A program made the translations under genes and the position numbers. The notes below the pieces were generated by a model. The model was not told the origin of the DNA. It searched no databases and saw only the letters and a program-made list of their open reading frames with translations. DNA of 42,066 bases from a virus (Duplodnaviria > Caudoviricetes), in IMG/VR virus record IMGVR_UViG_3300043676_000035, positions 1-42,066 of that record. The stretch is one strand, 5' to 3'. This document shows positions 2,686 to 42,066 of this stretch, piece by piece (within the stretch, counting starts at the first letter, position 1; each line of letters starts with the position of its first letter).

Positions 2686-2961
2686 TCAGTATCTCCCCTC
2701 CAGGACAGCCGTGATTTGCCGCAAGCACTGGCCCTCCGTGATCCGACCAAGGCGGCAAAGTTGTATGGCGTATTTAGCTCTACGGATCGTGTCGTCTGCC
2801 GGCGCGGGCACTGCGGTTATCAGCCCGGTCCATGTGCCCGGCAGCTCGTGCACCATGCGCGTTGCAATGCGAGCTGCGGTGGCGCGCTCCGGCTCATAGT
2901 CGGAGCGCATCATCTCGCAAACGCTGGCGAGCCGGATAAGTCTGGCCCGTGGGGGCATCAT
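2686..2961 (-). CDS. Hypothetical protein
   Basis: 91 aa, coupled to the DUF5664 gene. Confidence 0.6.
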   Translation of the reverse strand: MMPPRARLIRLASVCEMMRSDYEPERATAARIATRMVHELPGTWTGLITAVPAPADDTIRRAKYAIQLCRLGRITEGQCLRQITAVLEGRY

Positions 2962-3344
2962 TTGCCCTCCTTTGCCCGATCATCCTGGCCCAGCCTTTCG
3001 AGCTGATAGGTCAGAAGGAACGTCAGGCAGCAAGTTGCATGCGCTAGGTGCGATAGGCCGGTCTCGGGGTCGCGGTCCTCTCCTCTGGCAAACGCGAAGA
3101 TGTGGCGCAACGCTGCGGCTATCAGCCGGCGCCATGCCATGCCCTTGCGCCAGTTGTCGGGGGCATACTTGCCGGCGCCGTGGGTCAGCACCTTGCCAAC
3201 TTCCTCCAACGCTGCGAATGGCAGGAGGTCTAGGCGGTTCTTGGCGGCATCATCCTTGCGGCCGGACGCGGCCGGAGCGGGATCGAGACGGAGCTGAGAG
3301 CGGGCGCATTCAACACCGTTGAAATCCAGGGTATCGGCCATCAT
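2958..3344 (-). CDS. dATP/dGTP diphosphohydrolase N-terminal domain protein (DUF5664)
   Basis: G.K.D..K.R.DLLP...GA.KY..DNWRKG...AA.RH...GE..DPETGL.HLAHA signature. Confidence 0.88.
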   Translation of the reverse strand: MMADTLDFNGVECARSQLRLDPAPAASGRKDDAAKNRLDLLPFAALEEVGKVLTHGAGKYAPDNWRKGMAWRRLIAAALRHIFAFARGEDRDPETGLSHLAHATCCLTFLLTYQLERLGQDDRAKEGK

Positions 3345-3462
3345 TGGCTCCACTCCATCTCGTCTAGCCACCGCATGAGGTCGGCCGAGCGTCGGCGCTC
3401 ATCGCGAAGGCGACGACGTAGGCGGGAACATTCGAGGAGTAGCCAGCGGGTGCTGTCGGAGG

Positions 3463-4314
3463 TCATGCGGCCCCCTTGCTCAGCTCGGCCACAAGCCGGT
3501 CAACGTCGGCGCGGTACTTCGGGAGGATTGGCCCCTTGTAGGTGCCGGCCACGATGCTGCGGGCGACCATGAGAGGGATCGACTCGCCCGTGTCTCTAGG
3601 AGAGCCGCCGATTGTGTCCATTGCGGCGCTTACCGAGTACGCCCCATGGGCTGAGTGCGGGGCGGCGGGCCGCTCACAGGTGCGCAGGAACCATTTCTGC
3701 CATTCGGCCTCCCAAGCGGCTTCCGCACACTTGCGCTGCTTGCCTCGCCAGTGAGCCCGGAACTTCTTGGCCTCGTTATCCACCAAATGTGCATGCTCTG
3801 GACTTTCTTTGGTTGCCCATGCATGCCACTCTGCCGGCAGGCTCCAATCTGCTTCCAATTCAAAAGAAACTGAGAGAGCGCTCTCTCTCTCTATAATTTC
3901 TTTGTTCTTAGTATTAGTCCTTTGTATGTGTCCGGAATTTCCAGAAACTGGATTTGCCGGAACACCACTTTCCGGCTTTTCCGGAAAGTGGTCGGGGCTC
4001 GGTGAACTGGTGCTCGCAAGCTCTTGAGGGTCATCGGAAAACAGGTAATCCGTGGCGCCGCCCTTGGTCCACTCGCGCTTGCAGTATCCCCGCCCGATGG
4101 CCTCTTTCACCAGGGCATAGGCCGTATCCTTGGATATCCCGTATTCCTTGCGCAGCCACTTGACGTTGAACGTCCAGTCGAGCGGCAGCCGCAGGATTGA
4201 GACCAGGAACCCCTTGCATGCAAAGGATATGGTTGCATCGGCCAGCAATACATTGCTGATCTTGGTGTAGGCGCGGTTGAGCCCGGACACCCTGAAAATG
4301 GTTTGCTCGTTCAT
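3463..4314 (-). CDS. Replication initiator (N-terminal wHTH, C-terminal DnaT-like domain), lambda O analogue
   Basis: YTKISN.LL.D..IS..KG.L..L.LP.DW.F motif; S/P linker; E..KFR.HW...W...WQKW C-terminus; GGAGG SD before ATG 4314. Confidence 0.8.
   Translation of the reverse strand: MNEQTIFRVSGLNRAYTKISNVLLADATISFACKGFLVSILRLPLDWTFNVKWLRKEYGISKDTAYALVKEAIGRGYCKREWTKGGATDYLFSDDPQELASTSSPSPDHFPEKPESGVPANPVSGNSGHIQRTNTKNKEIIERESALSVSFELEADWSLPAEWHAWATKESPEHAHLVDNEAKKFRAHWRGKQRKCAEAAWEAEWQKWFLRTCERPAAPHSAHGAYSVSAAMDTIGGSPRDTGESIPLMVARSIVAGTYKGPILPKYRADVDRLVAELSKGAA
3878..3992. other. Putative lytic replication origin inside the initiator gene
   Basis: Five TTTCCGGAAA-like units at 3931-3987, a 12-bp inverted repeat ACCACTTTCCGG/CCGGAAAGTGGT at 3964-3992, and an adjacent AT-rich tract ~3890-3928. 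Confidence 0.7.
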
Positions 4315-4571
4315 GCTGCCCTCCGTGCGCCCAGCACGACAGCAGCCCGCATTGCGGCGCCCAGCGTGGGGTGATAACCAGCCACCTTGACGCCATCCAC
4401 GGTTGCCCAGCACTCGCCGCGGCCGAGGAACCGACCGACCCTGAGTCGATTTGTCGCGTCCCTCCACTCGTATTTCGATGTGCCGGGCTTCTTTGAGTTG
4501 CCGGTGAGCCAGCACGAGAACTTCACGCCCGCGATCAGGAATGGCGGGGCCCCTGATAGGGTATCGGTCAT
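4311..4571 (-). CDS. Hypothetical protein
   Basis: 86 aa, ATGA overlaps on both sides. Confidence 0.65.
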   Translation of the reverse strand: MTDTLSGAPPFLIAGVKFSCWLTGNSKKPGTSKYEWRDATNRLRVGRFLGRGECWATVDGVKVAGYHPTLGAAMRAAVVLGARRAA

Positions 4572-6453: not shown

Positions 6454-7101
6454 ATGATGGTGCACAAGAAGCAACCTATGATGGTGGTCACAGTCGCCAG
6501 TACCAAGGGCGGCGTATCAAAGACCACCCTATCCAGCGCCCTCGCCGTCCGCGCCGCTGCGGATGGCCTAAAGGTTGCGCTAATCGACACCGACCCACAG
6601 GCGTCGCTTGCCCGCTGGCATGAATTGCGCGGCAGTCCCGCCAACCCAAAAATCGTTGAAATTGACGCGGCGCGCGAGGCCATTGCGCTGCTCATATCCC
6701 AAAAATGGGACATCGTAATAATCGACACACCGCCCGCGTTTCTCGACAAGGTGGAGAACGCCATAAGCCTTGCTGACTTCGTGCTGGTGCCCTGCCGGCC
6801 GAGCGCAGTTGATGTCGAGGCTGTGCGCGACGTTGTTTCAATCTGCAACGACCATGGCAAGCCGTTTGCGTTCATTATCACGCAGATTTTGCCGCCCCCA
6901 GGCCGCATCGTGGAGGGCGCCCGAAAGTACCTTGAAGCGAGCGGCGATGTTATGTCGTCGCAAATGACCAGCCGAAAACCCTACGCGGCCGCCATGACGG
7001 TCGGGAAGACCGGCCCCGAAATCAGGGGCGGGGAGGCTGCCGCCGAGGAAATAAAGGCCATTTGGGCAGAGGTCAGCGAGAGGATGCGGAAGGCGTCATG
7101 A
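6454..7101 (+). CDS. parA: ParA-family ATPase (short, type Ib)
   Basis: KGGVSKTT deviant Walker A, LIDTDPQAS, IVIIDTPP, ADFVLVP; 215 aa, no N-terminal HTH. Confidence 0.93.
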   Translation: MMVHKKQPMMVVTVASTKGGVSKTTLSSALAVRAAADGLKVALIDTDPQASLARWHELRGSPANPKIVEIDAAREAIALLISQKWDIVIIDTPPAFLDKVENAISLADFVLVPCRPSAVDVEAVRDVVSICNDHGKPFAFIITQILPPPGRIVEGARKYLEASGDVMSSQMTSRKPYAAAMTVGKTGPEIRGGEAAAEEIKAIWAEVSERMRKAS

Positions 7102-7385
7102 GCGACGACGACATGACGGAAATGATCGAGACCCTGCTTAGGCAGCAGTCTGCTGTCATCACTACGGCGAAGGCTCGGGGAGCGCGCGAAATGCAGGGTG
7201 TGCACCACCTGGATAGGCGCGGCATGCGCACGCCTCCCGAACACATCCGAAACGTTCAATTCAACGTCAAGGTTTCGCAGCGATGGAAATCCAGAGTTGA
7301 GCGGTATGCTGCGGCTAAGGGCATGAGCTCGACTGAGGTTATAGTGCGGGCGTTTGATGCCTATGCGGCGGCGAACAAAGAATGA
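7098..7385 (+). CDS. Small ribbon-helix-helix protein (ParG-like centromere binder)
   Basis: VQFNVKVSQRWKSRVERYAAAKGMSSTEVIVRAF is an RHH pattern; flexible N-terminus; ATGA overlap with parA. Confidence 0.8.
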   Translation: MSDDDMTEMIETLLRQQSAVITTAKARGAREMQGVHHLDRRGMRTPPEHIRNVQFNVKVSQRWKSRVERYAAAKGMSSTEVIVRAFDAYAAANKE

Positions 7386-8371
7386 CCTACCGCGGAACCG
7401 TGCTCGGCTTCCTCTTTCTGTTGTTGGCCCTGGTGCTCGCCGGCTGCGAAGTGCTCGGGGTTTACGAGTACGTCCGCGAACAGAACGCCAGCGCCTATAT
7501 ACTGGTAGCAAGCTGCACCATTGCGCTAGTCACCCCTGGGCTTCCAGCGCTCGGGGACTGGTTCTGGCGCGGCAGGCAAGGCTTGTACTGCTTGGGCGCC
7601 TGGCTTGCGTTCGCTATCTGCCTGACAATCGTTCTGACTGCCGCCATCCAGCGCACAGGCGCGGCCACAGACGGCGCAACGCAGGCGCGCGCCGCCGCCG
7701 AGCGGGCAACCAAGATTGCGGAGGCCGCCGAGAGGCAGGCTAAGGACGATTACACGGCCGCACAATCGGCCGCCCTAACGGAGTGCGTTGTTAGGGCCAA
7801 GCGCTGCATGGACGCGGAAGACAAGGCCGCGACCGCGCGCGCGACGCTTGCGCGAGCTCGGGCAGACCTCGTGTCGGCTCCGGCCGGCGTCCAGGCGGAC
7901 CCCTTGGCCGCGCGGCTCGCGGGGTTGCTGCGCATGTCCGAGGATCAATTCAGGTTGATGCAACCATTGATGGTGCCGCTGGCCCTGTCGCTCCTGTCGG
8001 TGCTGTTCTTTGCGGGATGGGCTCGGTTGGATTTCACGCCAGCACCAGGAAAGCCCCAGGAGGCCCCGAAGGCGCCGATCGTTACTCCGGCAGCCAAGCC
8101 CCAGCTGGCCCTTGTTCGGCCACCAGCGGCCAAAAATGGGGCCGTGGCGGCGTATTTAGTGAACCGGACCGAGCCAGCGCCCGGAGATGAAGTGGAGATA
8201 GAGCGAACCATGTATGCCGACTATGCGGCGTGGTGTGCTCAGGTTGGTGCTGCCCCACACAAGCCCGGCCCGTTCGCTCAGGAGCTTGGCGGCGTCGCAA
8301 AGGCTGCCGGACTGAAGATTGCCATCCGGGGTCAGCAAGCGTTTTGTCTGGATCGCCGGCTAGTCGCTTAG
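7382..8371 (+). CDS. Membrane protein: ~3 TM, coiled coil, TM, Pro/Ala linker, C-terminal winged-helix-like domain
   Basis: Hydrophobic segments visible; C-terminus VAAYL...MYADYAAWC...PFAQEL resembles the D5/P4-primase C-terminal wHTH; ATGA overlap. Confidence 0.75.
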   Translation: MTYRGTVLGFLFLLLALVLAGCEVLGVYEYVREQNASAYILVASCTIALVTPGLPALGDWFWRGRQGLYCLGAWLAFAICLTIVLTAAIQRTGAATDGATQARAAAERATKIAEAAERQAKDDYTAAQSAALTECVVRAKRCMDAEDKAATARATLARARADLVSAPAGVQADPLAARLAGLLRMSEDQFRLMQPLMVPLALSLLSVLFFAGWARLDFTPAPGKPQEAPKAPIVTPAAKPQLALVRPPAAKNGAVAAYLVNRTEPAPGDEVEIERTMYADYAAWCAQVGAAPHKPGPFAQELGGVAKAAGLKIAIRGQQAFCLDRRLVA

Positions 8372-8672: not shown

Positions 8673-8927
8673 CTAGTTGAGTCGTCTGGATTTAAGCGGC
8701 CTACCAGTCTCATCCAGACCGAAAACGCAGGGCAGAACGTTCTCCCCCTGGCTTCGCAAGCGCAGCCAGAAAGCAAGATGATAGCCGGGCGGTATGTGCT
8801 CCTCGCGCTGCCAGTTGGATACAGCCTGCATGGATACGCCAACTTCCTTGGCTACGGAGGCGGTGCCCCCTAAAGCTTTAATCGCAGCCTTGACGGTCGT
8901 GTGCGTCTTGGGTCGCTTCATGAGCAT
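8673..8927 (-). CDS. cro: Cro-like repressor
   Basis: AIKALGGTASVAKEVGVSMQAVSNW...IPP; divergent from the cI-like gene. Confidence 0.85.
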   Translation of the reverse strand: MLMKRPKTHTTVKAAIKALGGTASVAKEVGVSMQAVSNWQREEHIPPGYHLAFWLRLRSQGENVLPCVFGLDETGRPLKSRRLN

Positions 8928-8932
8928 GGTAT

Positions 8933-8975
8933 ATCGTACATGAAAGCTGTACACCAGTCAAACAGCAATGCTGAA
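8933..8975 (-). promoter_or_regulatory. PR-like promoter plus two operators
   Basis: Minus strand TTGACT(8961-56)-N17-TACGAT(8938-33); operators TACATGAAAGCTGTA 8937-51 and AACAGCAATGCTGAA 8961-75. Confidence 0.8.
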
Positions 8976-8999
8976 TATGCACAGTCCAGGGGATCACCT

Positions 9000-9305
9000 A
9001 TGCAAGAGCGTATGGTTGATCCGCTGCATGAGCCGCCCGCCATAGGGGAGCGGCTGCGTTTGGTTTTCTTGGCGTGGCGATCCACCGCAAGTGGAAAGCG
9101 CACCCAAAAGGAGTTTTTCGCGCGAGCCGGCATTGCCCCCAACACTGGTTCTAATTGGATCACTGGCCGTGAGCAGCCCCGCGTGTCGGAGGCTATCAGA
9201 TTGTGTGAGGTATACAACCTCACGTTGGATTATATTTACAGAGGCGACCCCAGCGGCCTCCGCTACGAAATGCGGGACAAAATCGCCCTGATGCGCAAAT
9301 CCTAG
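9000..9305 (+). CDS. CI-like XRE HTH repressor without an S24 peptidase domain
   Basis: IGERLR...TQKEFFARAGIAPNTGSNWITGREQP...TLDYIYRG; start 9000 or 9012. Confidence 0.85.
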   Translation: MQERMVDPLHEPPAIGERLRLVFLAWRSTASGKRTQKEFFARAGIAPNTGSNWITGREQPRVSEAIRLCEVYNLTLDYIYRGDPSGLRYEMRDKIALMRKS

Positions 9306-11584: not shown

Positions 11585-12027
11585 AGCGCCCCCATATCAA
11601 CCTCACAACTAAGCTCGCAGCGGCCCTGCTCACCATCGTCCGCCCTGACGAGCACGGGGAGTTGCGCCGCGTCATCTCTCACGCCGACGCCCAGAACATG
11701 ACGGCGGTTCAGATTATTTCGGTTTTCGTGTGGGACCATGATCCGATACGCCATGAGGCGGGCGGCCCCGCATTGCCTTGGAACCTGACGCCAAGGCCCA
11801 TTATCGAGCACCGCCGCAAGTCCGCTAAGATCGATGCACCAGCGATTGCCAAGGGCAAGCGCCTGCGCACCGAGCAAGAGGCATTCCGGCGCAGGCTGCT
11901 GGAGAAGTCTGGCCAGATTCCCGTCGATGTGCGCGGATCGCGGGATGACGGACACGAACGAAAGCCGCCCAAGCGCGCGTGGCCCTCGCGACCGTTCCCA
12001 AAGAAACCAAAGAGAAACGCCCGATGA
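11581..12027 (+). CDS. HNH-like nuclease (degenerate)
   Basis: WDH.PI....GG.....NL.P....H..K...D...IAK.KR pattern. Confidence 0.65.
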   Translation: MKRPHINLTTKLAAALLTIVRPDEHGELRRVISHADAQNMTAVQIISVFVWDHDPIRHEAGGPALPWNLTPRPIIEHRRKSAKIDAPAIAKGKRLRTEQEAFRRRLLEKSGQIPVDVRGSRDDGHERKPPKRAWPSRPFPKKPKRNAR

Positions 12028-12185
12028 TCGCCCTTGTCCCAATCTGGATTGCCGCCGCCGTCAGCTTAGCCAAGGGCATTTCGTGGCTGGTGCGCGCTGA
12101 GATTGCCAAACGCAGGGCAGCCGGCGAAGCGTTCCCCCCGAGGAATACTGTCGCCGTGCATCAGGGGAATGACATCCCATGGTGA
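12024..12185 (+). CDS. Small membrane protein
   Basis: MIALVPIWIAAAVSLAKGISWLV..., ATGA overlap. Confidence 0.5.
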   Translation: MIALVPIWIAAAVSLAKGISWLVRAEIAKRRAAGEAFPPRNTVAVHQGNDIPW

Positions 12186-12192
12186 CCGTGAA

Positions 12193-12208
12193 ATCCTGCC
12201 CGTAGGCG
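12193..12208 (+). repeat. Left copy of a 16-bp direct repeat
   Basis: ATCCTGCCCGTAGGCG vs ATCTTGCCCGTAGGCG at 15516-15531. Confidence 0.6.
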
Positions 12209-12229
12209 ATATCGGATTTCCGATATCGC
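12206..12229. other. Perfect 11-bp inverted repeat with 2-bp centre (bidirectional terminator or recombination site)
   Basis: GCGATATCGGA-TT-TCCGATATCGC between convergent genes. Confidence 0.65.
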
Positions 12230-12232
12230 TTC

Positions 12233-12451
12233 TCAATTCAGCTTGTTGCGCACCCATCCATAGAAACGCGGCACCCAATCGGGTGCGATCTTGACACTGA
12301 AGACCTCGCGGCCGGCGACGTGCCCCCACGTGGCCGCCTGCTTCAGTCGACGCATCGCATCCTCGGCGTCTGGCGCCATCACGTGAAGTTCCCATTTGGC
12401 GCCGTCCAGATTGTACTCCACGGCCCACTTCTCGAATCTGCGCGTGTCCAC
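12233..12451 (-). CDS. Hypothetical protein
   Basis: GGAGG SD, GTG start. Confidence 0.65.
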   Translation of the reverse strand: MDTRRFEKWAVEYNLDGAKWELHVMAPDAEDAMRRLKQAATWGHVAGREVFSVKIAPDWVPRFYGWVRNKLN

Positions 12452-12467
12452 TGCTTGCCTCCTCTGT

Positions 12468-12695
12468 TTAGTAGACCTCGACGGCAACCGGATGCTTCGC
12501 CTTGCGTCTAACAGTGATCGTAACTGTCGCCTCGCCGTCCGCGCTCTCCAGCGCGAATCTCACCGCAGCGCGCGCCGCGTCTATCGCTCGCGTCCCCGCG
12601 CGGTCGGAGTTGCAGTTAAGCGCCGCAGTGTTCTGGTGCGGCTTGCTCCACGCGACCACTATCTCAACCTGAGGCACCCGCTCCGGCATCGTCAT
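12468..12695 (-). CDS. Hypothetical protein
   Basis: GAGGAGG SD, 75 aa. Confidence 0.65.
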   Translation of the reverse strand: MTMPERVPQVEIVVAWSKPHQNTAALNCNSDRAGTRAIDAARAAVRFALESADGEATVTITVRRKAKHPVAVEVY

Positions 12696-12702
12696 CGCCT
12701 CC

Positions 12703-12795
12703 TCACTTAAAGCTTGTTGTCCCTAGGAACACGAGACCCACGCCGACAATAACCAGCACAACACCCAGCAACGCGACCTCCCAATTCGTGGCCAT
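12703..12795 (-). CDS. 30-aa single-TM peptide
   Basis: MATNWEVALLGVVLVIVGVGLVFLGTTSFK, GAGGAG SD. Confidence 0.6.
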   Translation of the reverse strand: MATNWEVALLGVVLVIVGVGLVFLGTTSFK

Positions 12796-12805
12796 GCGCC
12801 GCTCC

Positions 12806-12988
12806 TCACGTTCCTGCCAGGGTTTGGGCAAATCGTTGCGCTTTCATCGCCGCTTCGAAGCCATCGTTGTAGCCGTCGGTGTAAGCCCGGCGTAGCGCCT
12901 TGAGCGCCTTCACGTCGCAGTTGTTGCCGAGCAAGCGAAACTTACCGGCGATGTCCTTGGCCCACTGCAGCCCGCCTTTCTCAGCCAT
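12806..12988 (-). CDS. Hypothetical protein
   Basis: GGAGGAGG SD; AY.DGY.DG motif. Confidence 0.65.
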   Translation of the reverse strand: MAEKGGLQWAKDIAGKFRLLGNNCDVKALKALRRAYTDGYNDGFEAAMKAQRFAQTLAGT

Positions 12989-13004
12989 CTGATAGCCTCC
13001 TCCG

Positions 13005-13331
13005 TTACGCAGCTACGGTTTTCGTAGCAACGTCCTTCACAAGCTCAACGTCGCTCGGGGTCGTCCAGAAGCGATGCGTCTTGCCATTGTCTGACGATGT
13101 CCAGAAGACGGCGTACTCTCTCGCCGGCTGGCCGACGTAGTCTTTGCCTATCTCGACGATCTTCGCGATGCCGCCCGCCGACCATGCCCAATCCTGATTG
13201 TTGAGATAGCGAACCGTCTGACCAACGCGCCAATGATCGGGAAGCGGGCGCTGATCGAACGCCTCGCGCCGCAGCTTGGCGGCTTCGGCCTCAAGCGCCG
13301 CAGCGCGATCTAGTTTCGCTTGGTCCACCAC
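13005..13331 (-). CDS. Hypothetical protein, SH3/KOW-like beta domain
   Basis: WRVGQTVRY...GIAKIVEI...WTTPSDVELV. Confidence 0.65.
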   Translation of the reverse strand: MVDQAKLDRAAALEAEAAKLRREAFDQRPLPDHWRVGQTVRYLNNQDWAWSAGGIAKIVEIGKDYVGQPAREYAVFWTSSDNGKTHRFWTTPSDVELVKDVATKTVAA

Positions 13332-13381
13332 GGATTCTCCGATACCTTTTTGCGGACGCCCGCAAAGAGGCGCTCCTCTCG

Positions 13382-13612
13382 TTACTGTGTCGTCGCCGTG
13401 AACTTGCGCACCATCGCGCGATAGCGATGCGCGTGTTTTGCAAGCGCCTGAGACAAGCCCGAGCGATGGCCGGGCAGTCCCAGCCAGCCGGCCGTGCTGG
13501 CGTGAGCAGCGCGGATCATTTCCTCGGTCGGCTCTGACGGCAGCACCGCATAACCCTCAAAGGTCAGTTGCAACAACGCGTCCCTGCCGATGATCTGTTC
13601 AGGTGTCCGCAC
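13382..13612 (-). CDS. Hypothetical protein with PTEEMI motif (start approximate)
   Basis: GYAVLP.EPTEEMIRA...YRAMV motif common in small phage proteins. Confidence 0.6.
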   Translation of the reverse strand: MRTPEQIIGRDALLQLTFEGYAVLPSEPTEEMIRAAHASTAGWLGLPGHRSGLSQALAKHAHRYRAMVRKFTATTQ

Positions 13613-13628
13613 GCCCGCCCCTCCTCGC

Positions 13629-13820
13629 TTACCGCTCGATTTCCACAAATCTCAGAACGCCGGGCTCGTAGTAAGTCACTCGCGTGCCCGCGCACCTATC
13701 ACACCTCGACTTCACCCGCGCTCGGCCGTCCGGCATCTTCCGCATGCCTTGAACGATGAAGTCGTGCTCGCACTTCGCGTAGTCCAGCGCAGCTTGCAGT
13801 CCTTCGACGATTTTGCTCAT
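13629..13820 (-). CDS. Small Cys/His protein
   Basis: CxH...CxxC, GAGGAG SD. Confidence 0.6.
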   Translation of the reverse strand: MSKIVEGLQAALDYAKCEHDFIVQGMRKMPDGRARVKSRCDRCAGTRVTYYEPGVLRFVEIER

Positions 13821-14389: not shown

Positions 14390-14692
14390 CTACCTTGTTG
14401 ATTGCCAGAAACGCTCAGCACTCTGCATTCCCGCCTCTATGTTCTTGCGCCCGACCGGATTGGCCGAGTGGACGCGCCACACGAACGGATCACCGCGACC
14501 ATGAAATGCGCGGGCCTCGATCTCGCGGACCACCGGCATAACCGTATCGTCGCCTCCAAGGTCATGGTCGAAACTGACCTCATAAATGTCGCTTGCGAAG
14601 TGCTTGAAGCAGAGCAGCGCGTCCGCCGACGACTTCGCCCAACGCCAAGTGACATCTGGCGGCTCGCGAAGGTCGTCGATCCACAGCTTCAC
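14390..14692 (-). CDS. Cyclic-phosphate-processing receiver domain protein
   Basis: LWIDD.R.PP...SFDHDLG...VHSANPVG signature. Confidence 0.85.
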   Translation of the reverse strand: MKLWIDDLREPPDVTWRWAKSSADALLCFKHFASDIYEVSFDHDLGGDDTVMPVVREIEARAFHGRGDPFVWRVHSANPVGRKNIEAGMQSAERFWQSTR

Positions 14693-14950: not shown

Positions 14951-15547
14951 CTAGCGTTTACGCGCCTTCGCGCGCTTGATGTAGTTGATGACGCTGGCGC
15001 GGGTCATGCCGAACTTGCGCGCCAGAGCCGATTTGTTTGCGCCCTTCTTGGTGGCGAGCTTCACAAGCCTCGCTGCCCGCGAGGCGTTCAGCATTGGCTT
15101 CGGGCCATAGGCGTATCCGCGTTCCTGGAGCGCCCTGATGCCAGCCGACGTGCGTTCGGAGGTCTGTTCCGCCACGAACTGCGCCACCGCGCCGAACACG
15201 CTCAGCAATAGCCGGCCGGTCGGCGTTGACCAGTCGATGCCCTCTGTAATTGACCGGAAACCCGCGCCCGAGGCGTGTACGCGGTCCAAGATCAGGAACA
15301 GTTCGCGCAGGTTGCGAGTGAGCCGGTCGAGCTTGTAGACGACCAGCGTATCGCCGGGGCGTAGGTCCATCAGCGCAAGCTCTAGCTGCTTGCGCGTGCG
15401 GCGCTTCGATGCGCTCGCGTGTTCCTTGTAGATATTCCAACACCCTTCACGCTCCAGTGCGTCGATCTGTGATCGCAAGTTCTGATCTGCGGTGCTCACG
15501 CGGGCGTAGCCGATGATCTTGCCCGTAGGCGCCGCTTGCTTCTGCAC
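14951..15547 (-). CDS. Small serine recombinase (resolvase/invertase family)
   Basis: IGYARVSTADQ, LRPGDTLVVYKLDRLTR, ID.STPTGRL, C-terminal HTH. Confidence 0.95.
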   Translation of the reverse strand: MQKQAAPTGKIIGYARVSTADQNLRSQIDALEREGCWNIYKEHASASKRRTRKQLELALMDLRPGDTLVVYKLDRLTRNLRELFLILDRVHASGAGFRSITEGIDWSTPTGRLLLSVFGAVAQFVAEQTSERTSAGIRALQERGYAYGPKPMLNASRAARLVKLATKKGANKSALARKFGMTRASVINYIKRAKARKR

Positions 15548-15554
15548 ACCGATC

Positions 15555-15640
15555 CGACCTTATCCACCGTTACACCGCATCCTCCCACAAATCGCTTGAC
15601 GTGTCAAATAGGCGTATGCTACTTATGTATGCTACTTATA
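15555..15640. promoter_or_regulatory. Divergent control region / possible res-like site
   Basis: Palindrome TTGAC-GT-GTCAA 15596-15607; tandem 13-mer GTATGCTACTTAT x2 at 15614-15639; TTATCCACC 15560-68. Confidence 0.5.
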
Positions 15641-16735: not shown

Positions 16736-16938
16736 CGGAGGCGGCGAGTGAGATCGAGCGGCTGGACCGTATGGTCGCGCACGCCTCCGCGGTTGGAGTG
16801 ACATTCCCACCCGATACGCTGCCCAAATCTCCGGGTGCAGCTGTCATGGTGGAATGCCCCGTCTGCAATACGGTGTGGGAGGCTGACAATCACGACAGAT
16901 GCCCTACGTGCGCACTCCCGCCGCAAGGCCTCAACTGA
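16732..16938 (+). CDS. Small zinc-ribbon protein
   Basis: CPVC...CPTC. Confidence 0.6.
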   Translation: MTEAASEIERLDRMVAHASAVGVTFPPDTLPKSPGAAVMVECPVCNTVWEADNHDRCPTCALPPQGLN

Positions 16939-16974
16939 GGTCTCTTTGTTTCTGCAACTCCACAGCGTTCAAGT

Positions 16975-17002
16975 CGTTCGCATAATAGATCTTATGGAAT
17001 AT
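16975..17002. other. dif-like XerC/XerD recombination site
   Basis: CGTTCGCATAA-TAGATC-TTATGGAATAT: 11-6-11 layout with the CGCATAA/TTATG core of dif; intergenic, AT-rich. Confidence 0.82.
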
Positions 17003-17083: not shown

Positions 17084-17167
17084 TCAAATATGAGGCGCCA
17101 CGATGACCACCGCGGCACCCGCCAGCACACACACGATGAACCATCCAAACAGGATTGCCCGGTTCAA
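17084..17167 (-). CDS. 27-aa TM peptide (TTG start)
   Basis: (M)NRAILFGWFIVCVLAGAAVVIVAPHI; TTGA overlap with the upstream stop. Confidence 0.4.
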   Translation of the reverse strand: MNRAILFGWFIVCVLAGAAVVIVAPHI

Positions 17168-17421
17168 TGAATTAGGGCGCGCAGGAGGGCTGCCGCTTTC
17201 TCCGGCGAGATCAAACCAACTATGGACGTGATTGCTACCGTAGCCATGGCGGCGATCTGCATCCACGGCAGCCTCTTGCCATGGTCCTTGGTGCCGTTGC
17301 CGTTTCGCCGTAGGTGCATCATGACGAGCCCCCAACGGTCGTCCGACCTTGCTTGCAGGTTCTCTAGTCCAGATTCCAGCTTCCCAACCCGGTAAGCCAT
17401 CTCTACCAGTTGCACGTGCAT
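17164..17421 (-). CDS. Holin-like membrane protein
   Basis: Coiled N-terminus plus C-terminal TM, in the lysis cassette. Confidence 0.55.
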   Translation of the reverse strand: MHVQLVEMAYRVGKLESGLENLQARSDDRWGLVMMHLRRNGNGTKDHGKRLPWMQIAAMATVAITSIVGLISPEKAAALLRALIH

Positions 17422-17506
17422 GGGTCATAGCGCGTCGCGCCCCTCTATTTAGCCGTCGCCGCCGGGCTTGCTGGTCTGCTAGCCCACCCCAACACGGTGG
17501 CAGCCC

Positions 17507-17632
17507 CTAGAAACGCCGTAGAGGCTGCGCCAAGCGCCGCCACGGTTCCACCCTGTAGAGATATGCTGCCAGGACCGCGCACGCGCTCCCAGAGGCCACC
17601 AAGAGCCAAACAACGATGGCGGGGCTGGTCAT
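17507..17632 (-). CDS. 41-aa TM peptide with basic tail (holin/antiholin candidate)
   Basis: MTSPAIVVWLLVASGSACAVLAAYLYRVEPWRRLAQPLRRF; ATGA overlap. Confidence 0.45.
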   Translation of the reverse strand: MTSPAIVVWLLVASGSACAVLAAYLYRVEPWRRLAQPLRRF

Positions 17633-17892
17633 GACAGCGGAACCTGTTTTTGCTCGCATTTATCCGAATACACGGTGGGCTTTCCTGATTTCTGAGTTGC
17701 ATACACCGAGTTATGGGCGATTATCTGCTTTCGCGCCTCACCCTTGGCCTCATCGCATTTCCATACGATGGGCTTCCACGGACGCAAGTCCGAGACCGGA
17801 ACCGGCTTATCGGTCGCGCACCCGCCAAGGATCGTCGCGACCAGGCTTGCCAGCAGCAACGGCCTCACGGACTGTTTCGGCTTGTTTCGCAT
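17629..17892 (-). CDS. o-spanin (Rz1-like lipoprotein)
   Basis: Signal peptide with lipobox LGGC; overlaps the i-spanin in another frame. Confidence 0.7.
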   Translation of the reverse strand: MRNKPKQSVRPLLLASLVATILGGCATDKPVPVSDLRPWKPIVWKCDEAKGEARKQIIAHNSVYATQKSGKPTVYSDKCEQKQVPLS

Positions 17893-18055
17893 TTGCGTCG
17901 GCCTTCTGTGTGATCTTCGCCTCAAACTTTGACGCACCTACGGACCGCTCGTGATATTTCCAAGCCTCATACCCCACGCCCGCCGCGAGTAGCGCGACCG
18001 CGTAGAGAACCCATCGGGAGCCCGTCAGGGCCGCCAGGGCACCTAGGAACGTCAT
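17807..18055 (-). CDS. i-spanin (Rz-like)
   Basis: N-terminal TM plus helical periplasmic segment, right after the endolysin. Confidence 0.7.
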   Translation of the reverse strand: MTFLGALAALTGSRWVLYAVALLAAGVGYEAWKYHERSVGASKFEAKITQKADANAKQAETVREAVAAGKPGRDDPWRVRDR

Positions 18056-18906
18056 TGGGTTGCGCCCTCCCTGCACCGCTGGGCGTACTGCGCCAGCTCA
18101 AAGATAATGACGGCCGCAACCGCAATGCCGCCGATTTCAAGCATATGATCCTGCAGGAACGCCATGGCCCCGGCGCAGCTCGCCGTTATGGTTTTGATGT
18201 TCATGCGGTTGGCCCAATAGAGCCAGCTATCCATTTTCAGACGGTCGTGGATTTCAAAGTGCGCTTCGGTGCTCAATGCCTCGGCTTCGATTGCCTTGGG
18301 TGCAACTACGGCCTCCTCCGTCTCAGGCGATCCGCCGAGGATCGCCGGGTCCAGGTCCGCCATGATCTTTAGGACCGCCATGCACCCGTCTTGCCGGTCA
18401 ACCGCTGTCGAGCTGTATTTTCCGTCCGACACGAATTTGCCAGCTTGATAGTGGTTCGTGTCGGCCCATAGATAGGGCGAGAGACCACGATTGGGGTGGC
18501 GATAGCCAAATCCGTTGAACCGCTCCAGCTCGTAGCAGACACGTTCAATGGGCCACTCGCGGACATTCTGCAGCCCCTTGATCCGCAGCGCGTCAATGGC
18601 GCTTTCGTCCCATCCAAACGGGGGCGAGCCTTTGGCGGGCCGTCCGGCCGGGACGTGGTAGGTGCGCGCGCTCAGGCTGTCCCCGTTGTGCAGATGGGTG
18701 CCGAAATTGCAGTAACTCTCCCTCATGTGCGCCAGGCCGATGAAGTACCAGGGCACACCAAGCGCACCGCCGACCGCCTCGTAATGAGCGCGGCCGGCTA
18801 GCACCTTGGTGGCGGCCCGCCGCGCCTGGCCATCGCGGTCCGGTCGGATTTCGACGGACGCCCAGAGCCGGGCGTATTCGTCGCGAAGATCGTCAAGCGT
18901 CGGCAT
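18052..18906 (-). CDS. Endolysin, lysozyme-family (COG5526-like) with C-terminal hydrophobic segment
   Basis: GVPWYFIGLAHMRES..NF.THLHNGD.L..RT.HVPAGRP...W.ESAIDAL...ERFNG.GY...SPYLW..T. Confidence 0.88.
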   Translation of the reverse strand: MPTLDDLRDEYARLWASVEIRPDRDGQARRAATKVLAGRAHYEAVGGALGVPWYFIGLAHMRESYCNFGTHLHNGDSLSARTYHVPAGRPAKGSPPFGWDESAIDALRIKGLQNVREWPIERVCYELERFNGFGYRHPNRGLSPYLWADTNHYQAGKFVSDGKYSSTAVDRQDGCMAVLKIMADLDPAILGGSPETEEAVVAPKAIEAEALSTEAHFEIHDRLKMDSWLYWANRMNIKTITASCAGAMAFLQDHMLEIGGIAVAAVIIFELAQYAQRCREGATQ

Positions 18907-35001: not shown

Positions 35002-36099
35002 TTAGCTCTGACGAACGGCGTAGGTGGAGATAGTCACCGTGCCGAAGTCGATTGCGTTGAACACGGTCTTTTTCAGGCCCCAGATTGACCAAGCGCCCAG
35101 CTCCAGCTCGCGGTCATGGTCGAACAGCTCCTCGCTCCACCTGTACTTCATGGGGCCATAGCTGTTGCTTTTGCCATAGCCGCAGACGGCTGCCTGAGCG
35201 CCCAGCAGCACAGCGCGACGAACGGTCGTGATGGCCACCGAAGACGAGCTGTTGACGCCCTGGGTCACGTCCTGAGACGAGCGCAGAACGATGCCGTTCC
35301 ACTCACCAAGCGCGCCGGTATAGATCGGGGACTTGGTTGCCTCCGAGCCGGCCATGGCCGCCTTGGTGATGTCGAGCCAGCCGCCAGACGTGGCGTTGGT
35401 GCGAAGCGAGGTAACCTGCGCCGGATCGAGATAACAGACGTACTTGGGCTGGCCACCGATCATGATCGGACGGACCATGTTGGAGCCGGTGCTGGCGATT
35501 TCCTTGGCCTTGTCGAGCAAGGCCACGGTGAACGTGTCGGAGCTGGTCAGCAGCTCGTCCGTGGTCGCGGTGCCAGCGAAGATTTTGCGAGTGCTGGTGT
35601 GCGCAGTTACGGTATTCAGGCCGCAGAACACGGAGCCAGCCGTTGCACTCTCGGTATTGGCCGGGAGATAGCCGCACACGTGGTTGAAGAAAGAAACCGA
35701 CTTGCGGTCCTTCCACCACTGCACTAGGCCGTTCTTGCCCTGCTCACGCAAGTCGAAGGGAATGCGCTGAGCGTCGATGGTGGCGCCCTTGTTGCGCACG
35801 CCGACAGTCTGGCCCAGCTCATTGATGAGCAGAGCTTGCGAGTAGAACGACAGGCCCTCGGCGTTGCCTTGGGCTTTCTGTCCCTCGGTGAAGCCCTTTC
35901 CAGACAAGCGGGCGCGCAGCGCGAAGGTGATCTGATCGCCGGCTTGCTTGCTGGTGTCGCTCTTGATCTGGATGATTGAATCGTCATCCTCGCCCATGAG
36001 CTTGGCGATATCGGACGTGTCGCGCTCAGCTTCGGCCACTTCCTTGGACCAAAGCTTGACTGCCATGGCGTCACCGACGCCGAAAGATGTGGTGGACAT
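35002..36099 (-). CDS. Major capsid protein (N4-gp56/DUF4043 family)
   Basis: AVKLWS...GD.ITF.L...EG...GN.E.L...R.VLLGAQA...W.EE.FD...G.KKT.FN..DFG; SD AAGGGG before ATG 36099. Confidence 0.9.
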   Translation of the reverse strand: MSTTSFGVGDAMAVKLWSKEVAEAERDTSDIAKLMGEDDDSIIQIKSDTSKQAGDQITFALRARLSGKGFTEGQKAQGNAEGLSFYSQALLINELGQTVGVRNKGATIDAQRIPFDLREQGKNGLVQWWKDRKSVSFFNHVCGYLPANTESATAGSVFCGLNTVTAHTSTRKIFAGTATTDELLTSSDTFTVALLDKAKEIASTGSNMVRPIMIGGQPKYVCYLDPAQVTSLRTNATSGGWLDITKAAMAGSEATKSPIYTGALGEWNGIVLRSSQDVTQGVNSSSSVAITTVRRAVLLGAQAAVCGYGKSNSYGPMKYRWSEELFDHDRELELGAWSIWGLKKTVFNAIDFGTVTISTYAVRQS

Positions 36100-36305
36100 G
36101 AGAATCCCCTTGTGTCGTTCCGGTGGAGTCTCGTGCTGTGACGCCAGCGCGAAGCGGAACGGCACACCTTGTCGTCGGTGCCGGGGATTGACGATGAGCG
36201 TTTAACGCTGCTCAGGCGGAACGGCTTTTTTCCCTGCCGGTCGGGGAGCCATGTACGCGGCTCACCCTGCGTGAATGTGTCGATTTGCAGGCGGTGTCAA
36301 GAGCC

Positions 36306-37393: not shown

Positions 37394-39613
37394 TCACATT
37401 CCAAGGCCGCCAGGAGGCACTAGGCCACCGGGCGCAGCGGGGGGAATCATTGCGGGCATGTCCTGTGCAGGCGGTTGCATCTCGCCCAACTCCGGCAACT
37501 CGGCGGGAGGCTTCGGCCCTGCCGTGCCCGGCGATAGCGCATCGCCCTCGCTTGCTGCCATGGCGCGGTCTTTTTCTGCGCCGATAGCGTCGAGCACCTG
37601 ACGATAGGCGCCAACCTGATACTCGGCCTGCTGCACGCCAATCTTGGCGATGTCGAGCACGGCGCCAGCACGCGAGGCATCCGCCGAGGCTTCCTTTTGC
37701 TCGGTGTCAGCGCGCTTGTTCTTGATGTCTTCCACCGCCGACGTAATAGCCAGCATCTTATGCTTCTCAGCGTCCGGGTCCGGCTTCTGCGAAATCTGTC
37801 GCAGCGCATCAACCAACTTCGACGGCAATCCCGGCGCATAATCAAGGATCGTGACCGCAACCTCTGGCGTCAACATATCCTTGAACGCCGGCAAGACCTG
37901 CATGAGCGCGGCCCAGACCTTTTCCTTGGTGTTTGGGGAGCTTGGCGCCTCCGATACCTCAGTGTCATACTGCCCCATGACATCGCGCCTAATGAGCGGA
38001 ATCGCCTTCCACCCATTGTCGCCGTTAATGCGAATCATTCGCGGCGTGTCGGTCGCGAGATATTTCTGGATGTAACAGAGACGTGTCTGCCCAACCTGCT
38101 GCTTGAAAAGCGCAAAGTTATCGAACAGGGAGGCCAGGATCGTCATGGCCGCCTGCTTGCGCTGCGCCTCCAGCACGCCCGGCTGGTCACGGTCGGCCGC
38201 GCCCAGCAGCTCCAGGTTGACACCCGACGTGGTGCCAAACGAACCATCCGCGATTTGGAACAACTGCATTACGCCAGCCGTGATGCCCGCACCCGGCTTG
38301 GCCATAATCTTGCCCTTGGCGATAGCGCCATCCGCAAGCACCGTGACCGCGTTCGGCTTGGCGTAGTTGGCCAGGAACTCCCGCGCATCATCCATGGCCG
38401 ACTTCTCAACCAGGATACCGCCCTTGGCGGTGCTGTTGACGATGTGCATGATCTGAGCAAAGAATTTGTTGCTCCAGATTTGCGGGTCTTTTAGCACGCG
38501 CACGATGCCGAACCACGTACCCTCTACGTCGTCGGGTTCGTAGGTGATGACGTTGAACGTGAAACCGTCCGGCCGCGGTCCGGGGCCACACTGCAGTATC
38601 TTGCTGCCGAGGAACGCCTGCTTATAGACCTTGCGGCGCAGCTTGGCGCTAGGGGGCGTCTGCCCTCCCATCTTCGCAACATGCGCCGGCCAATCAGTCT
38701 CGCTCACGTCAATCAACAGGTCTTCCGGCTTAACCTGCTGCTGCGCCATCGCGGCCTGCTGGATAACCGCCTGCGCATCGGGGCGCACGGTCTTGTAATA
38801 ACCCTCCAGCTCCGACCACTGCACCTGTACGATTGTAACTTCGCGCTTGGGATCGTTGGAGACGTTGTTTTCTGCCCGCAGCTCTTTCTGCTCCTGGGTC
38901 TTCGGGTTCGGGTCTTTGCCCGACGTGATGTCGCCGGCCCATGACGCATTGAGGTCTTCGTCCATCACATCGGGAGAGTCCGTGATACCCGGCAGCAGCG
39001 CGCGAGCCTCGCTGAGCAGCATCTTGCGAGCGCGCCAAATTCGCTTGGCGTCAAGCAAGTTGTCATCGCGAGCGTTCTTGTCCCACCCCATCTCGCCGGG
39101 AAATACGCGATCCTCTATGTATTTGCCCTTGGGGTCTTGATCGAAATCGATCTTGGCCTCGGTGAACCCCATCCCGCAAATCGTGGCGTCGCGGAATGCG
39201 CGCGACTGCTTACGATCCGCATTGCACCCGCGTGCCATCCAATCCGACGTGCCCGACAGAACCTCGTTCTCCTTGATGTCGCCGGGGTCCGTGATGTCGG
39301 TTGGCAGAAACGCAGTCTTGTGCCGGTTGTTGGCCTCAATGCCGCAGATAGCGCGCACGAACTTCAAAGTTTTATTGAATGTCACAGCCGGGCGCTGCTC
39401 ATCCACCAACTTCTGCACGTCGGTCTGATTCCATTGGCCCGGCCCAGCCACAAAATTGAACTCCTGCAGCGCATTGGTGCGCCACGTGTTGGAATGCTCC
39501 ATATCAGCAATGATCTGCTCCTTGAGCATGAGGAACAGGCCGAGCTCGTCCTGCTGGGAAGACGGCTTGTCTTCGACGGGAGCGGCGTCGCTTAGCGCTT
39601 GGTCATCCATCAC
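37394..39613 (-). CDS. Portal protein (P22-like)
   Basis: G.QW.....L....RP..TFN, G.E.NNR, FG.VR.LKDPQ...NK; Pro-rich tail. Confidence 0.9.
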   Translation of the reverse strand: MMDDQALSDAAPVEDKPSSQQDELGLFLMLKEQIIADMEHSNTWRTNALQEFNFVAGPGQWNQTDVQKLVDEQRPAVTFNKTLKFVRAICGIEANNRHKTAFLPTDITDPGDIKENEVLSGTSDWMARGCNADRKQSRAFRDATICGMGFTEAKIDFDQDPKGKYIEDRVFPGEMGWDKNARDDNLLDAKRIWRARKMLLSEARALLPGITDSPDVMDEDLNASWAGDITSGKDPNPKTQEQKELRAENNVSNDPKREVTIVQVQWSELEGYYKTVRPDAQAVIQQAAMAQQQVKPEDLLIDVSETDWPAHVAKMGGQTPPSAKLRRKVYKQAFLGSKILQCGPGPRPDGFTFNVITYEPDDVEGTWFGIVRVLKDPQIWSNKFFAQIMHIVNSTAKGGILVEKSAMDDAREFLANYAKPNAVTVLADGAIAKGKIMAKPGAGITAGVMQLFQIADGSFGTTSGVNLELLGAADRDQPGVLEAQRKQAAMTILASLFDNFALFKQQVGQTRLCYIQKYLATDTPRMIRINGDNGWKAIPLIRRDVMGQYDTEVSEAPSSPNTKEKVWAALMQVLPAFKDMLTPEVAVTILDYAPGLPSKLVDALRQISQKPDPDAEKHKMLAITSAVEDIKNKRADTEQKEASADASRAGAVLDIAKIGVQQAEYQVGAYRQVLDAIGAEKDRAMAASEGDALSPGTAGPKPPAELPELGEMQPPAQDMPAMIPPAAPGGLVPPGGLGM

Positions 39614-41584: not shown

Positions 41585-42062
41585 GCTCTCCCCCGCCGTG
41601 AATCAGAGCCGGAACCTCGCCCCTCGCAAGAGCCTCCCAAAGCGTGCGGAAGCTCTTGCCTACCTCGTGCGTCGCTTCGATCTTTTCCCCGTACACCTTG
41701 GGGCGCAGCTTGCCGGCCATCCATTTGCGGGCATCAATGCGAAGCTTAGAGCGCGCGACATGCTCGTGGTCCAGAACGCGGACCGTCTCATCGCCGCGCT
41801 GCACGTCCATCCAATCGTTGCGGGCGTCGTCGGCTATCTCTTTGATTTCAGCAAACAAAGAGTCGGCCTGATCCGCGCGCGCGCGCGCGTATTGTGTGCG
41901 GAACTGCTCATGCGTGCGCAGCCAACGACGGATCGTTGACCAATGCGGCCTTCCCGGCTGATCGCAGTATTCACGAACGCTCCCACCGTCTGCGATATGC
42001 TCGCAGAACTCCTCAGCCATTTGCATCGAAAACTTGGAGTTTCCGTGCAGCTTTACCGGCAC
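41577..42062 (-). CDS. terS: Terminase small subunit (Sf6-like)
   Basis: F..QYARAR..QAD....EI..IADD...ARSKLRIDARKW...KL.PK.YG. Confidence 0.92.
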   Translation of the reverse strand: MPVKLHGNSKFSMQMAEEFCEHIADGGSVREYCDQPGRPHWSTIRRWLRTHEQFRTQYARARADQADSLFAEIKEIADDARNDWMDVQRGDETVRVLDHEHVARSKLRIDARKWMAGKLRPKVYGEKIEATHEVGKSFRTLWEALARGEVPALIHGGGERA

Positions 42063-42066
42063 CAGG
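41870..42066. repeat. Terminal direct repeat, right copy
   Basis: Matches 1-197 with two mismatches. Confidence 0.95.

What the first reader, a model, noticed from the sequence alone, without database searches (positions are those of the whole stretch)
16975..17002. dif-like XerCD site where attP normally lies, in a phage with no integrase
Seen: CGTTCGCATAA-TAGATC-TTATGGAATAT in the AT-rich gap where early and lysis transcription converge. Known: E. coli dif is GGTGCGCATAA-TGTATA-TTATGTTAAAT; from memory, rhizobial dif sites have a TTATGGAA-type XerD arm. Inference: either host XerCD resolves dimers of the plasmid prophage, or this tailed dsDNA phage integrates at host dif like an IMEX. IMEX behaviour is best known from filamentous phages such as CTXphi.
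Basis: partly seen in the sequence, partly recalled or inferred. Interest (0 to 1): 0.8.

Follow-up and report, generated by a model that had tools for sequence, protein, structure and literature searches.

The report
Plasmid-type Xer site in a podophage
A complete 42-kb tailed phage with plasmid-partition genes carries the 28-base site that rhizobia-like bacteria use to untangle DNA circles, with a core like those on their plasmids, so it likely borrows the host enzymes to keep its own circular genome single rather than to enter the chromosome.

Summary
The site is real, unique and intergenic. Both 11-bp arms match the predicted dif of Hyphomicrobiales (26/28 overall, 22/22 in the arms), which names the host order. 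The 6-bp core TAGATC is not chromosomal: with these arms it is absent from 185,579 species genomes. C-ended cores occur only as extra sites (13 of 100 multi-site, 0 of 280 single-site genomes) and on rhizobial plasmids. The genome is a closed 41,869-bp podovirus circle with ParA, a small serine resolvase and a repressor, and no tyrosine or large serine integrase. Among relatives, ParA and integrase exclude each other. The cultured plasmid prophage POI1126 carries an unannotated, C-ended site at the same place, after the lysis genes. Best reading (0.6): a plasmid-type Xer site for resolving multimers of the plasmid prophage, probably backing up its own resolvase. IMEX integration is less likely (0.17): no integrated copy, no junction, core mismatch; a VGJ-type route is not excluded. 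Against: closer ParA relatives lack the site, and about 100 other viral contigs carry such sites mostly without ParA. The scan noted dif sites in tailed phages 47 times on other DNA; a tailed IMEX (LME-1) is already published.

The parts
16975..17002 (+). 28-bp Xer recombination site (xrs/dif-like), 11-6-11
   Evidence: arms identical to genome sites L193 and L208
16975..16985 (+). predicted XerC arm
   Evidence: alignment to Kono 2011 dif rows and 120 genome sites
16986..16991 (+). 6-bp core TAGATC, C-ended (secondary-replicon type)
16992..17002 (+). predicted XerD arm, identical to the Bradyrhizobium/Nitrobacter dif arm
16926..16943 (+). terminator-like hairpin ending the rightward early ORFs, 32 bp before the site
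   Evidence: consensus scan only; 4 found in the region against 2.3 in shuffles
14951..15547 (-). small serine recombinase (resolvase/invertase, 198 aa, YARVST motif, no large-serine Recombinase domain)
   Evidence: PF00239 E 5e-39; PF07508 absent; sequence
15596..15639 (.). candidate res site or operator upstream of the resolvase: near-palindrome 15596-15607 and tandem 13-bp repeat 15614-15639
   Evidence: read from the sequence; function inferred, not tested
6454..7101 (+). short ParA-family ATPase
   Evidence: phrog_164 E 2e-42; PF13614; about 40% identical to plasmid ParA proteins
7062..7385 (+). small protein after parA, likely a ribbon-helix-helix partition partner
   Evidence: weak PHROG hits to Arc-like repressors, E 0.005-0.009; single-sequence model was poor and gave no fold match
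3463..4515 (-). phage-type replication initiator with an internal AT-rich patch (about 3776-4000)
   Evidence: PHROG replication initiation hits; GC windows
8901..9305 (+). HTH repressor (temperate lifestyle, inferred)
   Evidence: PF01381, phrog_8 and phrog_4
17164..18906 (-). probable lysis cassette (lysin-like 18052-18906, spanin-like ORFs, small membrane ORFs) ending 160 bp from the site
   Evidence: weak Rz-like hit, ORF translations; lysin identity inferred
35002..36165 (-). N4-gp56-family major capsid protein (podovirus virion module 19760-42062)
41870..42066 (+). 197-bp overlap with bases 1-197: the record is a closed 41,869-bp circle
   Evidence: self-BLAST 99%; circular contig of 41,899 in run X1

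Best explanation
This is a 28-bp Xer-type site with Hyphomicrobiales dif arms and a plasmid-type core on a circular, ParA-encoding podovirus, and it likely lets the host's XerC/XerD resolve multimers of the phage's own circle while it persists as a plasmid prophage. Shown: sequence, uniqueness, arm identity, core class, closed circle, ParA, resolvase, repressor, no integrase. Inferred: (1) the host is in the Hyphomicrobiales; (2) lysogens keep the genome as a low-copy plasmid partitioned by ParA and its neighbour; (3) host XerC/XerD bind the site and recombine two identical copies on a dimer; (4) the divergent, C-ended core limits exchange with chromosomal dif; (5) the site backs up the phage's serine resolvase, as plasmid R27 has both its own recombinase and an xrs. 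Whether FtsK or accessory proteins activate the reaction is unknown.
For: Core plus inner arms: 0 matches in 185,579 species genomes and in the JGI metagenomes. Of 120 genome sites with the same arms, 118 cores end in A and 0 start with TAG. C-ended cores: 13 of 401 Hyphomicrobiales genomes, all 13 with a further A-ended site; 13 of 100 multi-site against 0 of 280 single-site genomes (hand count; Fisher p 2e-8; genomes not independent). Best PLSDB matches are intergenic sites on rhizobial plasmids; 8 of 12 fetched have xxxATC cores (BLAST favours cores like the query). Among 13 related records, 6 have ParA, 4 a tyrosine integrase, none both; 4 of the 5 other ParA records have a resolvase. POI1126, shown to be a plasmid prophage (PMC5492332, passages), and plasmid pOps-OCH-23_4 carry a C-ended site just after the lysis genes. 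Under 80 kb, ParA is in 2 of 4 viral records with C-ended cores and 0 of 39 with other cores. One circular contig and no junction at the site in run X1. R27 precedent (10.1101/2024.04.05.588136).
Against: The five other ParA relatives show no site, including the complete G005, so the site is dispensable in the clade. The phage already has a resolvase, and enterobacterial plasmids of 30-100 kb tend to lack xrs. Most viral contigs with such sites lack ParA: 1 of 22 and 7 of 49 have it. Relative G488 has a C-ended site with an integrase and no ParA. The ParA association is confounded by 105-118-kb phages that have ParA with either core type. Six other plasmid or phage records of this capsid family from other host orders have no match. 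No plasmid-type Rep was identified; only one KOPS motif and no ARG-box- or IHF-like motif near the site. Plasmid state is not shown for this phage.
Confidence: 0.6

Rival explanations
1. IMEX attP: the phage integrates through host XerC/XerD, either VGJphi-like by XerC-side homology into a dif whose core begins TA or TAG, or into an xxxATC site of a chromid or plasmid by XerD-side homology.
For: No integrase; position analogous to int in RHph_Y1_10. VGJphi attP differs from dif1 only on the XerD side of the core (PMC5357621, passages). One genome, G071, has a TAGATA core, 5 of 6 alike. Plasmid cores TATATC and TGGATC are also 5 of 6 alike. The POI1126-type cores begin GAT or TAT like O. anthropi dif I and II. 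A tailed IMEX exists (LME-1).
Against: No exact core in any genome. G071 is 47% GC around the site, with different outer arms (24/28), a poor host for a 61% GC phage. No junction in run X1. None of 5 checked related prophages lies at dif. No DUF3653 match. Both arms are canonical, unlike TLC and GGI attP. ParA plus resolvase point to an autonomous circle.
Confidence: 0.17
2. The site serves the lytic cycle or any circular stage (unlinking or monomerising replicating circles), whatever the mode of lysogeny.
For: 106 IMG/VR loci carry these arms (some redundant), with highly varied cores, mostly without ParA or integrase. At least 15 of 77 lie at the terS-terL junction (my count). Some co-occur with a phage integrase (G488, G470, G473, POI1126).
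Against: Here the site is not near the terminase but in the position seen in a proven plasmid prophage, and its core is of the secondary-replicon class. No direct evidence for a lytic role.
Confidence: 0.15
3. A functionless passenger picked up recently from a rhizobial plasmid; the resolvase does all resolution.
For: Absent from the other ParA relatives; own resolvase present.
Against: Both arms are perfect; no plasmid-like flanking DNA was seen (one search matched only the 30-bp query; one search found no near phage); same position in POI1126; such sites recur in about 100 viral contigs.
Confidence: 0.08

Closest known systems
xrs of large enterobacterial plasmids, e.g. R27 (Fournes et al., 10.1101/2024.04.05.588136; parts 1-3 of 5 read)
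   Same: 28-bp site with 6-bp core, no recognisable accessory sequence, alongside a self-encoded recombinase
   Different: Here on a 42-kb tailed phage of Alphaproteobacteria, a size class that tends to lack xrs in enterobacteria; own enzyme is a serine resolvase; no KOPS bias; activity untested
dif sites of alphaproteobacterial chromosomes and secondary replicons (Kono 2011, PMC3025954, passages and Table S1 rows; Azospirillum preprint 10.64898/2026.09.14.751567, passages)
   Same: Arms identical or nearly identical; intergenic; single copy
   Different: Core differs from every chromosomal core seen; carried by a virus
Ochrobactrum phage POI1126 (PMC5492332, passages)
   Same: Podovirus with the same capsid family (33%), partition genes, plasmid prophage, and a C-ended dif-like site just after the lysis genes (found here; 'Xer' occurs 0 times in the paper)
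   Different: 60 kb, RepA/RepB-type partition genes, encodes a tyrosine recombinase rather than a serine resolvase
Legionella phage LME-1, a tailed IMEX (10.1101/2021.09.12.459815 and PMC12407071, passages)
   Same: Short-tailed phage carrying a host dif-like site
   Different: Its att is identical to 22 bp of host dif and it is found integrated; single recombinase XerL
VGJphi and TLCphi of Vibrio cholerae (PMC5357621, PMC9226527, passages)
   Same: Double-stranded dif-like attP; VGJphi diverges on the XerD side of the core
   Different: Small non-tailed elements; VGJphi site is 29 bp; TLCphi has a matching core, a degenerate XerD arm and the activator XafT
P1 Cre/loxP (PMC7969092, passages)
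   Same: Multimer resolution for a plasmid prophage
   Different: P1 uses its own tyrosine recombinase; here the 28-bp site would use host enzymes

Membership tests
XerC/XerD site (dif/xrs) | 11-6-11 layout with inner palindrome, intergenic | tested here: met
XerC/XerD site (dif/xrs) | arms match dif of a taxon | tested here: met
   22/22 with L193 and L208; XerD arm equals Kono 2011 rows; 380 of 401 Hyphomicrobiales genomes have the motif
XerC/XerD site (dif/xrs) | bound and recombined by XerC/XerD | not testable with these tools
   needs EMSA and recombination assays
IMEX, full-core type (TLCphi, GGI, LME-1) | core identical to a host dif | tested here: not met
   0 exact matches; best 5 of 6
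IMEX, VGJphi type | XerC-side core homology with a host dif | tested here: inconclusive
   0 of 120 start with TAG, but G071 does; true host unknown; only about 180 of 534 order-wide matches were listed
IMEX (any) | no integrase of its own | tested here: met
   PF00589 and PF07508 absent; a small serine resolvase is present
IMEX (any) | found integrated at dif between two hybrid sites | tested here: not met
   no junction; 0 of 5 related prophages at dif; no second same-strand site or window-like virion gene in the 80 long genome loci; sampling is limited
IMEX, TLCphi type | XafT-like activator and degenerate XerD arm | tested here: not met
   PF12375 absent (that XafT is DUF3653 is recalled); XerD arm canonical
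Phage-plasmid | complete virion and lysis genes on a closed circle | tested here: met
Phage-plasmid | partition system | tested here: met
   ParA clear; partner only weakly supported; centromere not found
Phage-plasmid | plasmid replication initiator | tested here: inconclusive
   only a phage-type initiator, PHROG E 2e-9, no Pfam hit
Phage-plasmid | extrachromosomal maintenance in a lysogen | not testable with these tools
   no host; the one DNA run is probably the source
cer/psi-type site with accessory sequence | ArgR or ArcA box beside the XerC arm | tested here: inconclusive
   no ARG-like box with a recalled E. coli consensus; ArcA not tested; alphaproteobacterial factors unknown

The most novel reading that the evidence does not exclude
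A tailed phage-plasmid that toggles between a free circle and a host-Xer-integrated state with no integrase, docking by partial core homology into xxxATC sites of rhizobial chromids and plasmids or into a TAGATA dif; it would be one case of a broad, undescribed use of host XerC/XerD by alphaproteobacterial tailed phages, with the last core base marking replicon class.
Probability: 0.15. Interest if true: 0.72.

Novelty: new variant of a known kind. Interest (0 to 1): 0.45.

Why it matters
Plasmid Xer sites and dif-integrating phages are both known. In the papers searched, a host-Xer site on a tailed plasmid prophage was not described. The work gives a host order for an uncultured phage, a simple sequence mark (C-ended core) that separates secondary-replicon from chromosomal sites in Hyphomicrobiales, and an overlooked site in a cultured plasmid prophage. 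It also warns that a dif-like site in an integrase-less phage is not by itself evidence of integration: 106 viral loci carry such sites with varied, mostly non-chromosomal cores.

Tried and rejected
No near DNA relative in GenBank phages and no phage record covering 80% of the 30-bp site. ParA found no IMG/VR relative by single-sequence scan. Pattern search of 55 related viral records: none convincing; 4 had 2-mismatch hits at control level; the capsid scan covered 34 of 64 parts and missed G488. Resolvase-related loci were distant (38-58%) and 2 of 159 had a near-core match. Closer relatives (capsid 80-85%, resolvase 83-87%) lie on contigs I could not fetch, so conservation of the site in close kin is untested. 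No useful repeats near the site. KOPS: one in the genome; the GC-skew turning points (about 11,600 and 1,100) do not coincide with the site. The model of the parA neighbour was low-confidence and matched nothing. TerL search of PLSDB gave no small alphaproteobacterial phage-plasmid among the 60 rows shown. Run X1 is probably the source and contigs drop rare junctions, so 'no junction' is weak. Rejected: chance match; large serine integrase; TLC-type IMEX. Literature searches; 'plasmid prophage' + 'dif-like' + 'XerC' gave 0 papers; most subscription papers are not in the library. The Azospirillum and Fournes preprint supplements (lists of sites) were not seen and may already show core differences by replicon.

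Full report
1. Observation. Bases 16975-17002 are as reported. The site is the only ATAA-N6-TTAT core in the window and is far beyond chance: 0.02 expected with 2 mismatches; 39.9 bits against 16.5 for the best of 60 shuffles (profile partly circular). It is intergenic, between rightward early ORFs and leftward lysis ORFs, 32 bp after a terminator-like hairpin. The gap is 46% GC against about 61% for the genome.

2. The genome. The ends overlap by 197 bp at 99%, and a public soil-metagenome run, probably the source, holds it as one circular contig of 41,899 letters at depth 18.8 with no joint or loose end at the site. It is therefore a complete circle of 41,869 bp. It encodes a podovirus virion module (N4-gp56-type capsid, portal, terminase), a repressor, a phage-type replication initiator, a short ParA with a small neighbour, and a 198-aa serine resolvase 1.4 kb from the site. 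It has no tyrosine integrase, no large-serine Recombinase domain and no DUF3653 match.

3. Whose dif. A scan of species genomes for the arms returned 120 loci from 8 of 64 parts, nearly all Hyphomicrobiales or unnamed Alphaproteobacteria. Two match both arms fully, 26/28 overall. The motif is in 380 of 401 sampled genomes of that order, and Kono 2011 lists the same XerD arm for Bradyrhizobium, Nitrobacter and Rhodopseudomonas dif. The host is most likely in this order (inference).

4. The core is not chromosomal. Of the 120 genome cores, 118 end in A and none starts with TAG. Exact-arm sites with a C-ended core occur in 13 of 401 genomes. Each of these also has an A-ended site, on another contig in 12 and 3.7 Mb away in one. 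By my count, that is 13 of 100 multi-site and 0 of 280 single-site genomes; five of the 13 share one core and are probably kin. The best PLSDB matches are intergenic sites on plasmids of Bradyrhizobium, Rhizobium, Devosia, Afipia, Methylobacterium, Agrobacterium, Sinorhizobium and Bosea. Of 12 fetched, 8 have xxxATC cores; BLAST favours such cores, so this is not a frequency. Against this: genome G071 has a TAGATA core, one base from the phage's, but is 47% GC there and matches 24/28. Only about 180 of 534 order-wide matches were listed, so other TAG cores may exist.

5. Relatives. Among 13 related records including the window, 6 have ParA and 4 a tyrosine integrase, none both; 3 fragments have neither. 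Four of the five other ParA records have a small resolvase, and none has the site. The site is therefore not conserved at 53-72% capsid identity; closer kin exist but could not be fetched. One relative found later, G488 (capsid 55%), has a C-ended site just before terL, with an integrase and no ParA. Related prophages occur in 7 of 401 genomes; none of 5 checked lies at dif.

6. A cultured parallel. Ochrobactrum phage POI1126 shares the capsid family (33%) and was shown to replicate as a plasmid prophage (PMC5492332, passages). It and the near-identical plasmid pOps-OCH-23_4 carry CGATCGGATAA (G/T)ATTTC TTATGGAACTA between the lysis genes and the partition region. The paper does not mention Xer. 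Both also encode a tyrosine recombinase. Six other records of this capsid family from other host orders had no match to the pattern used.

7. Wider picture. Three non-overlapping scans gave 22 + 7 + 77 IMG/VR loci with such arms, some redundant. Their cores are very varied; none of the 14 distinct cores in the first set is among the 7 common genome cores, though GATGCA is a frequent single-site core. ParA occurs in 1 of 22, 5 of 7 (C-ended) and 7 of 49 records (the 50 longest of 77 were sent, one not held); tyrosine integrase in 3 of 22, 3 of 7 and 6 of 49. The C-ended/ParA link (p 0.003) rests on few, partly related records. So these sites are widespread in tailed phages and are not simply a substitute for integrase.

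8. Mechanism. Two copies on a dimer have identical cores and can complete both strand exchanges; a mismatch at the XerD end of the core would hinder the XerD-first, FtsK-driven exchange with chromosomal dif (established tyrosine-recombinase logic; lack of XerD-side homology blocks XerD catalysis in VGJphi). With ParA, a resolvase and a closed circle, the simplest reading is multimer resolution of a plasmid prophage, redundant with the resolvase as in R27: 0.6. VGJphi-type or chromid-directed integration stays possible (0.17), as do a lytic-cycle role (0.15) and a passenger (0.08). No binding, recombination or plasmid state is shown.

9. Comparison and novelty. It works like a plasmid xrs and meets the sequence features of an Xer site. 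It fails the tested features of full-core and TLC-type IMEXs and is inconclusive for the VGJ type. A tailed IMEX is published (LME-1); non-tailed dif-type phages are well covered. The phage-plasmid survey PMC7969092 has no mention of Xer, and searches found no paper on Xer sites of plasmid prophages, within the limits of the library. The scan's index holds 47 earlier notes on dif sites in tailed phages in other genomes and none holding all words of the ParA-resolvase-dif query; these are unchecked leads. Papers seen: passages of PMC3025954 (plus Table S1 rows), PMC5357621, PMC9226527, PMC5492332, PMC7969092, PMC12715192, PMC12407071, PMC7901474, 10.1101/2021.09.12.459815 and 10.64898/2026.09.14.751567; parts 1-3 of 5 of 10.1101/2024.04.05.588136; listing only for PMC7062461.

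10. Verdict. Observation confirmed; interpretation partly supported; new variant of a known kind; interest 0.45.

Noticed in passing
L464 (KY417925.1 about 37953-37980, minus strand); L463 3870-3897; L481: Unannotated dif-like site after the lysis genes of plasmid prophage POI1126 and two close relatives, followed by an IHF-like motif.
   Followed up: partly
   Followed up: partly
L120-L239 and L002-L023, 50-bp flanks: IHF-like motif (recalled consensus, 1 mismatch) enriched on the XerD side of genome sites (28 of 118 against 5.3 shuffled) and on both sides of viral sites (7 and 6 of 22 against about 1); absent at the window's site.
   Followed up: partly
G482, G483, G486, G494, G502, G510, G514, G530, G481: A group of 105-118-kb viral records with a ParA-like ATPase, an Xer site and no tyrosine integrase: likely large alphaproteobacterial phage-plasmids.
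   Followed up: no
G005, G006, G007, G008, G014 against G010, G012, G015, G047: Within this podovirus clade, ParA (mostly with a resolvase) and tyrosine integrase exclude each other and lie at different genome positions, suggesting repeated lifestyle switches.
   Followed up: partly
window 7382-8371 (+): 329-aa membrane and coiled-coil ORF right after the parA pair, with a 32% homologue after parA in G014; no family hit.
   Followed up: no
window 14390-14692 (-): Stand-alone cyclic-phosphate-processing receiver domain protein (PF20274), possibly counter-defence.
   Followed up: no
window 2958-3371 (-): dATP/dGTP pyrophosphohydrolase-like gene, 78% identical in G005.
   Followed up: no
L028 / G005 11651-13659: The capsid gene of relative G005 is split into two matching parts about 800 bp apart, suggesting an intron or insertion.
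   Followed up: no
G057, G253, G281, G354, G307: Five 6.5-7.6-Mb genomes share a GATATA site on one contig and a CATATC site on another, probably chromosome and chromid.
   Followed up: partly
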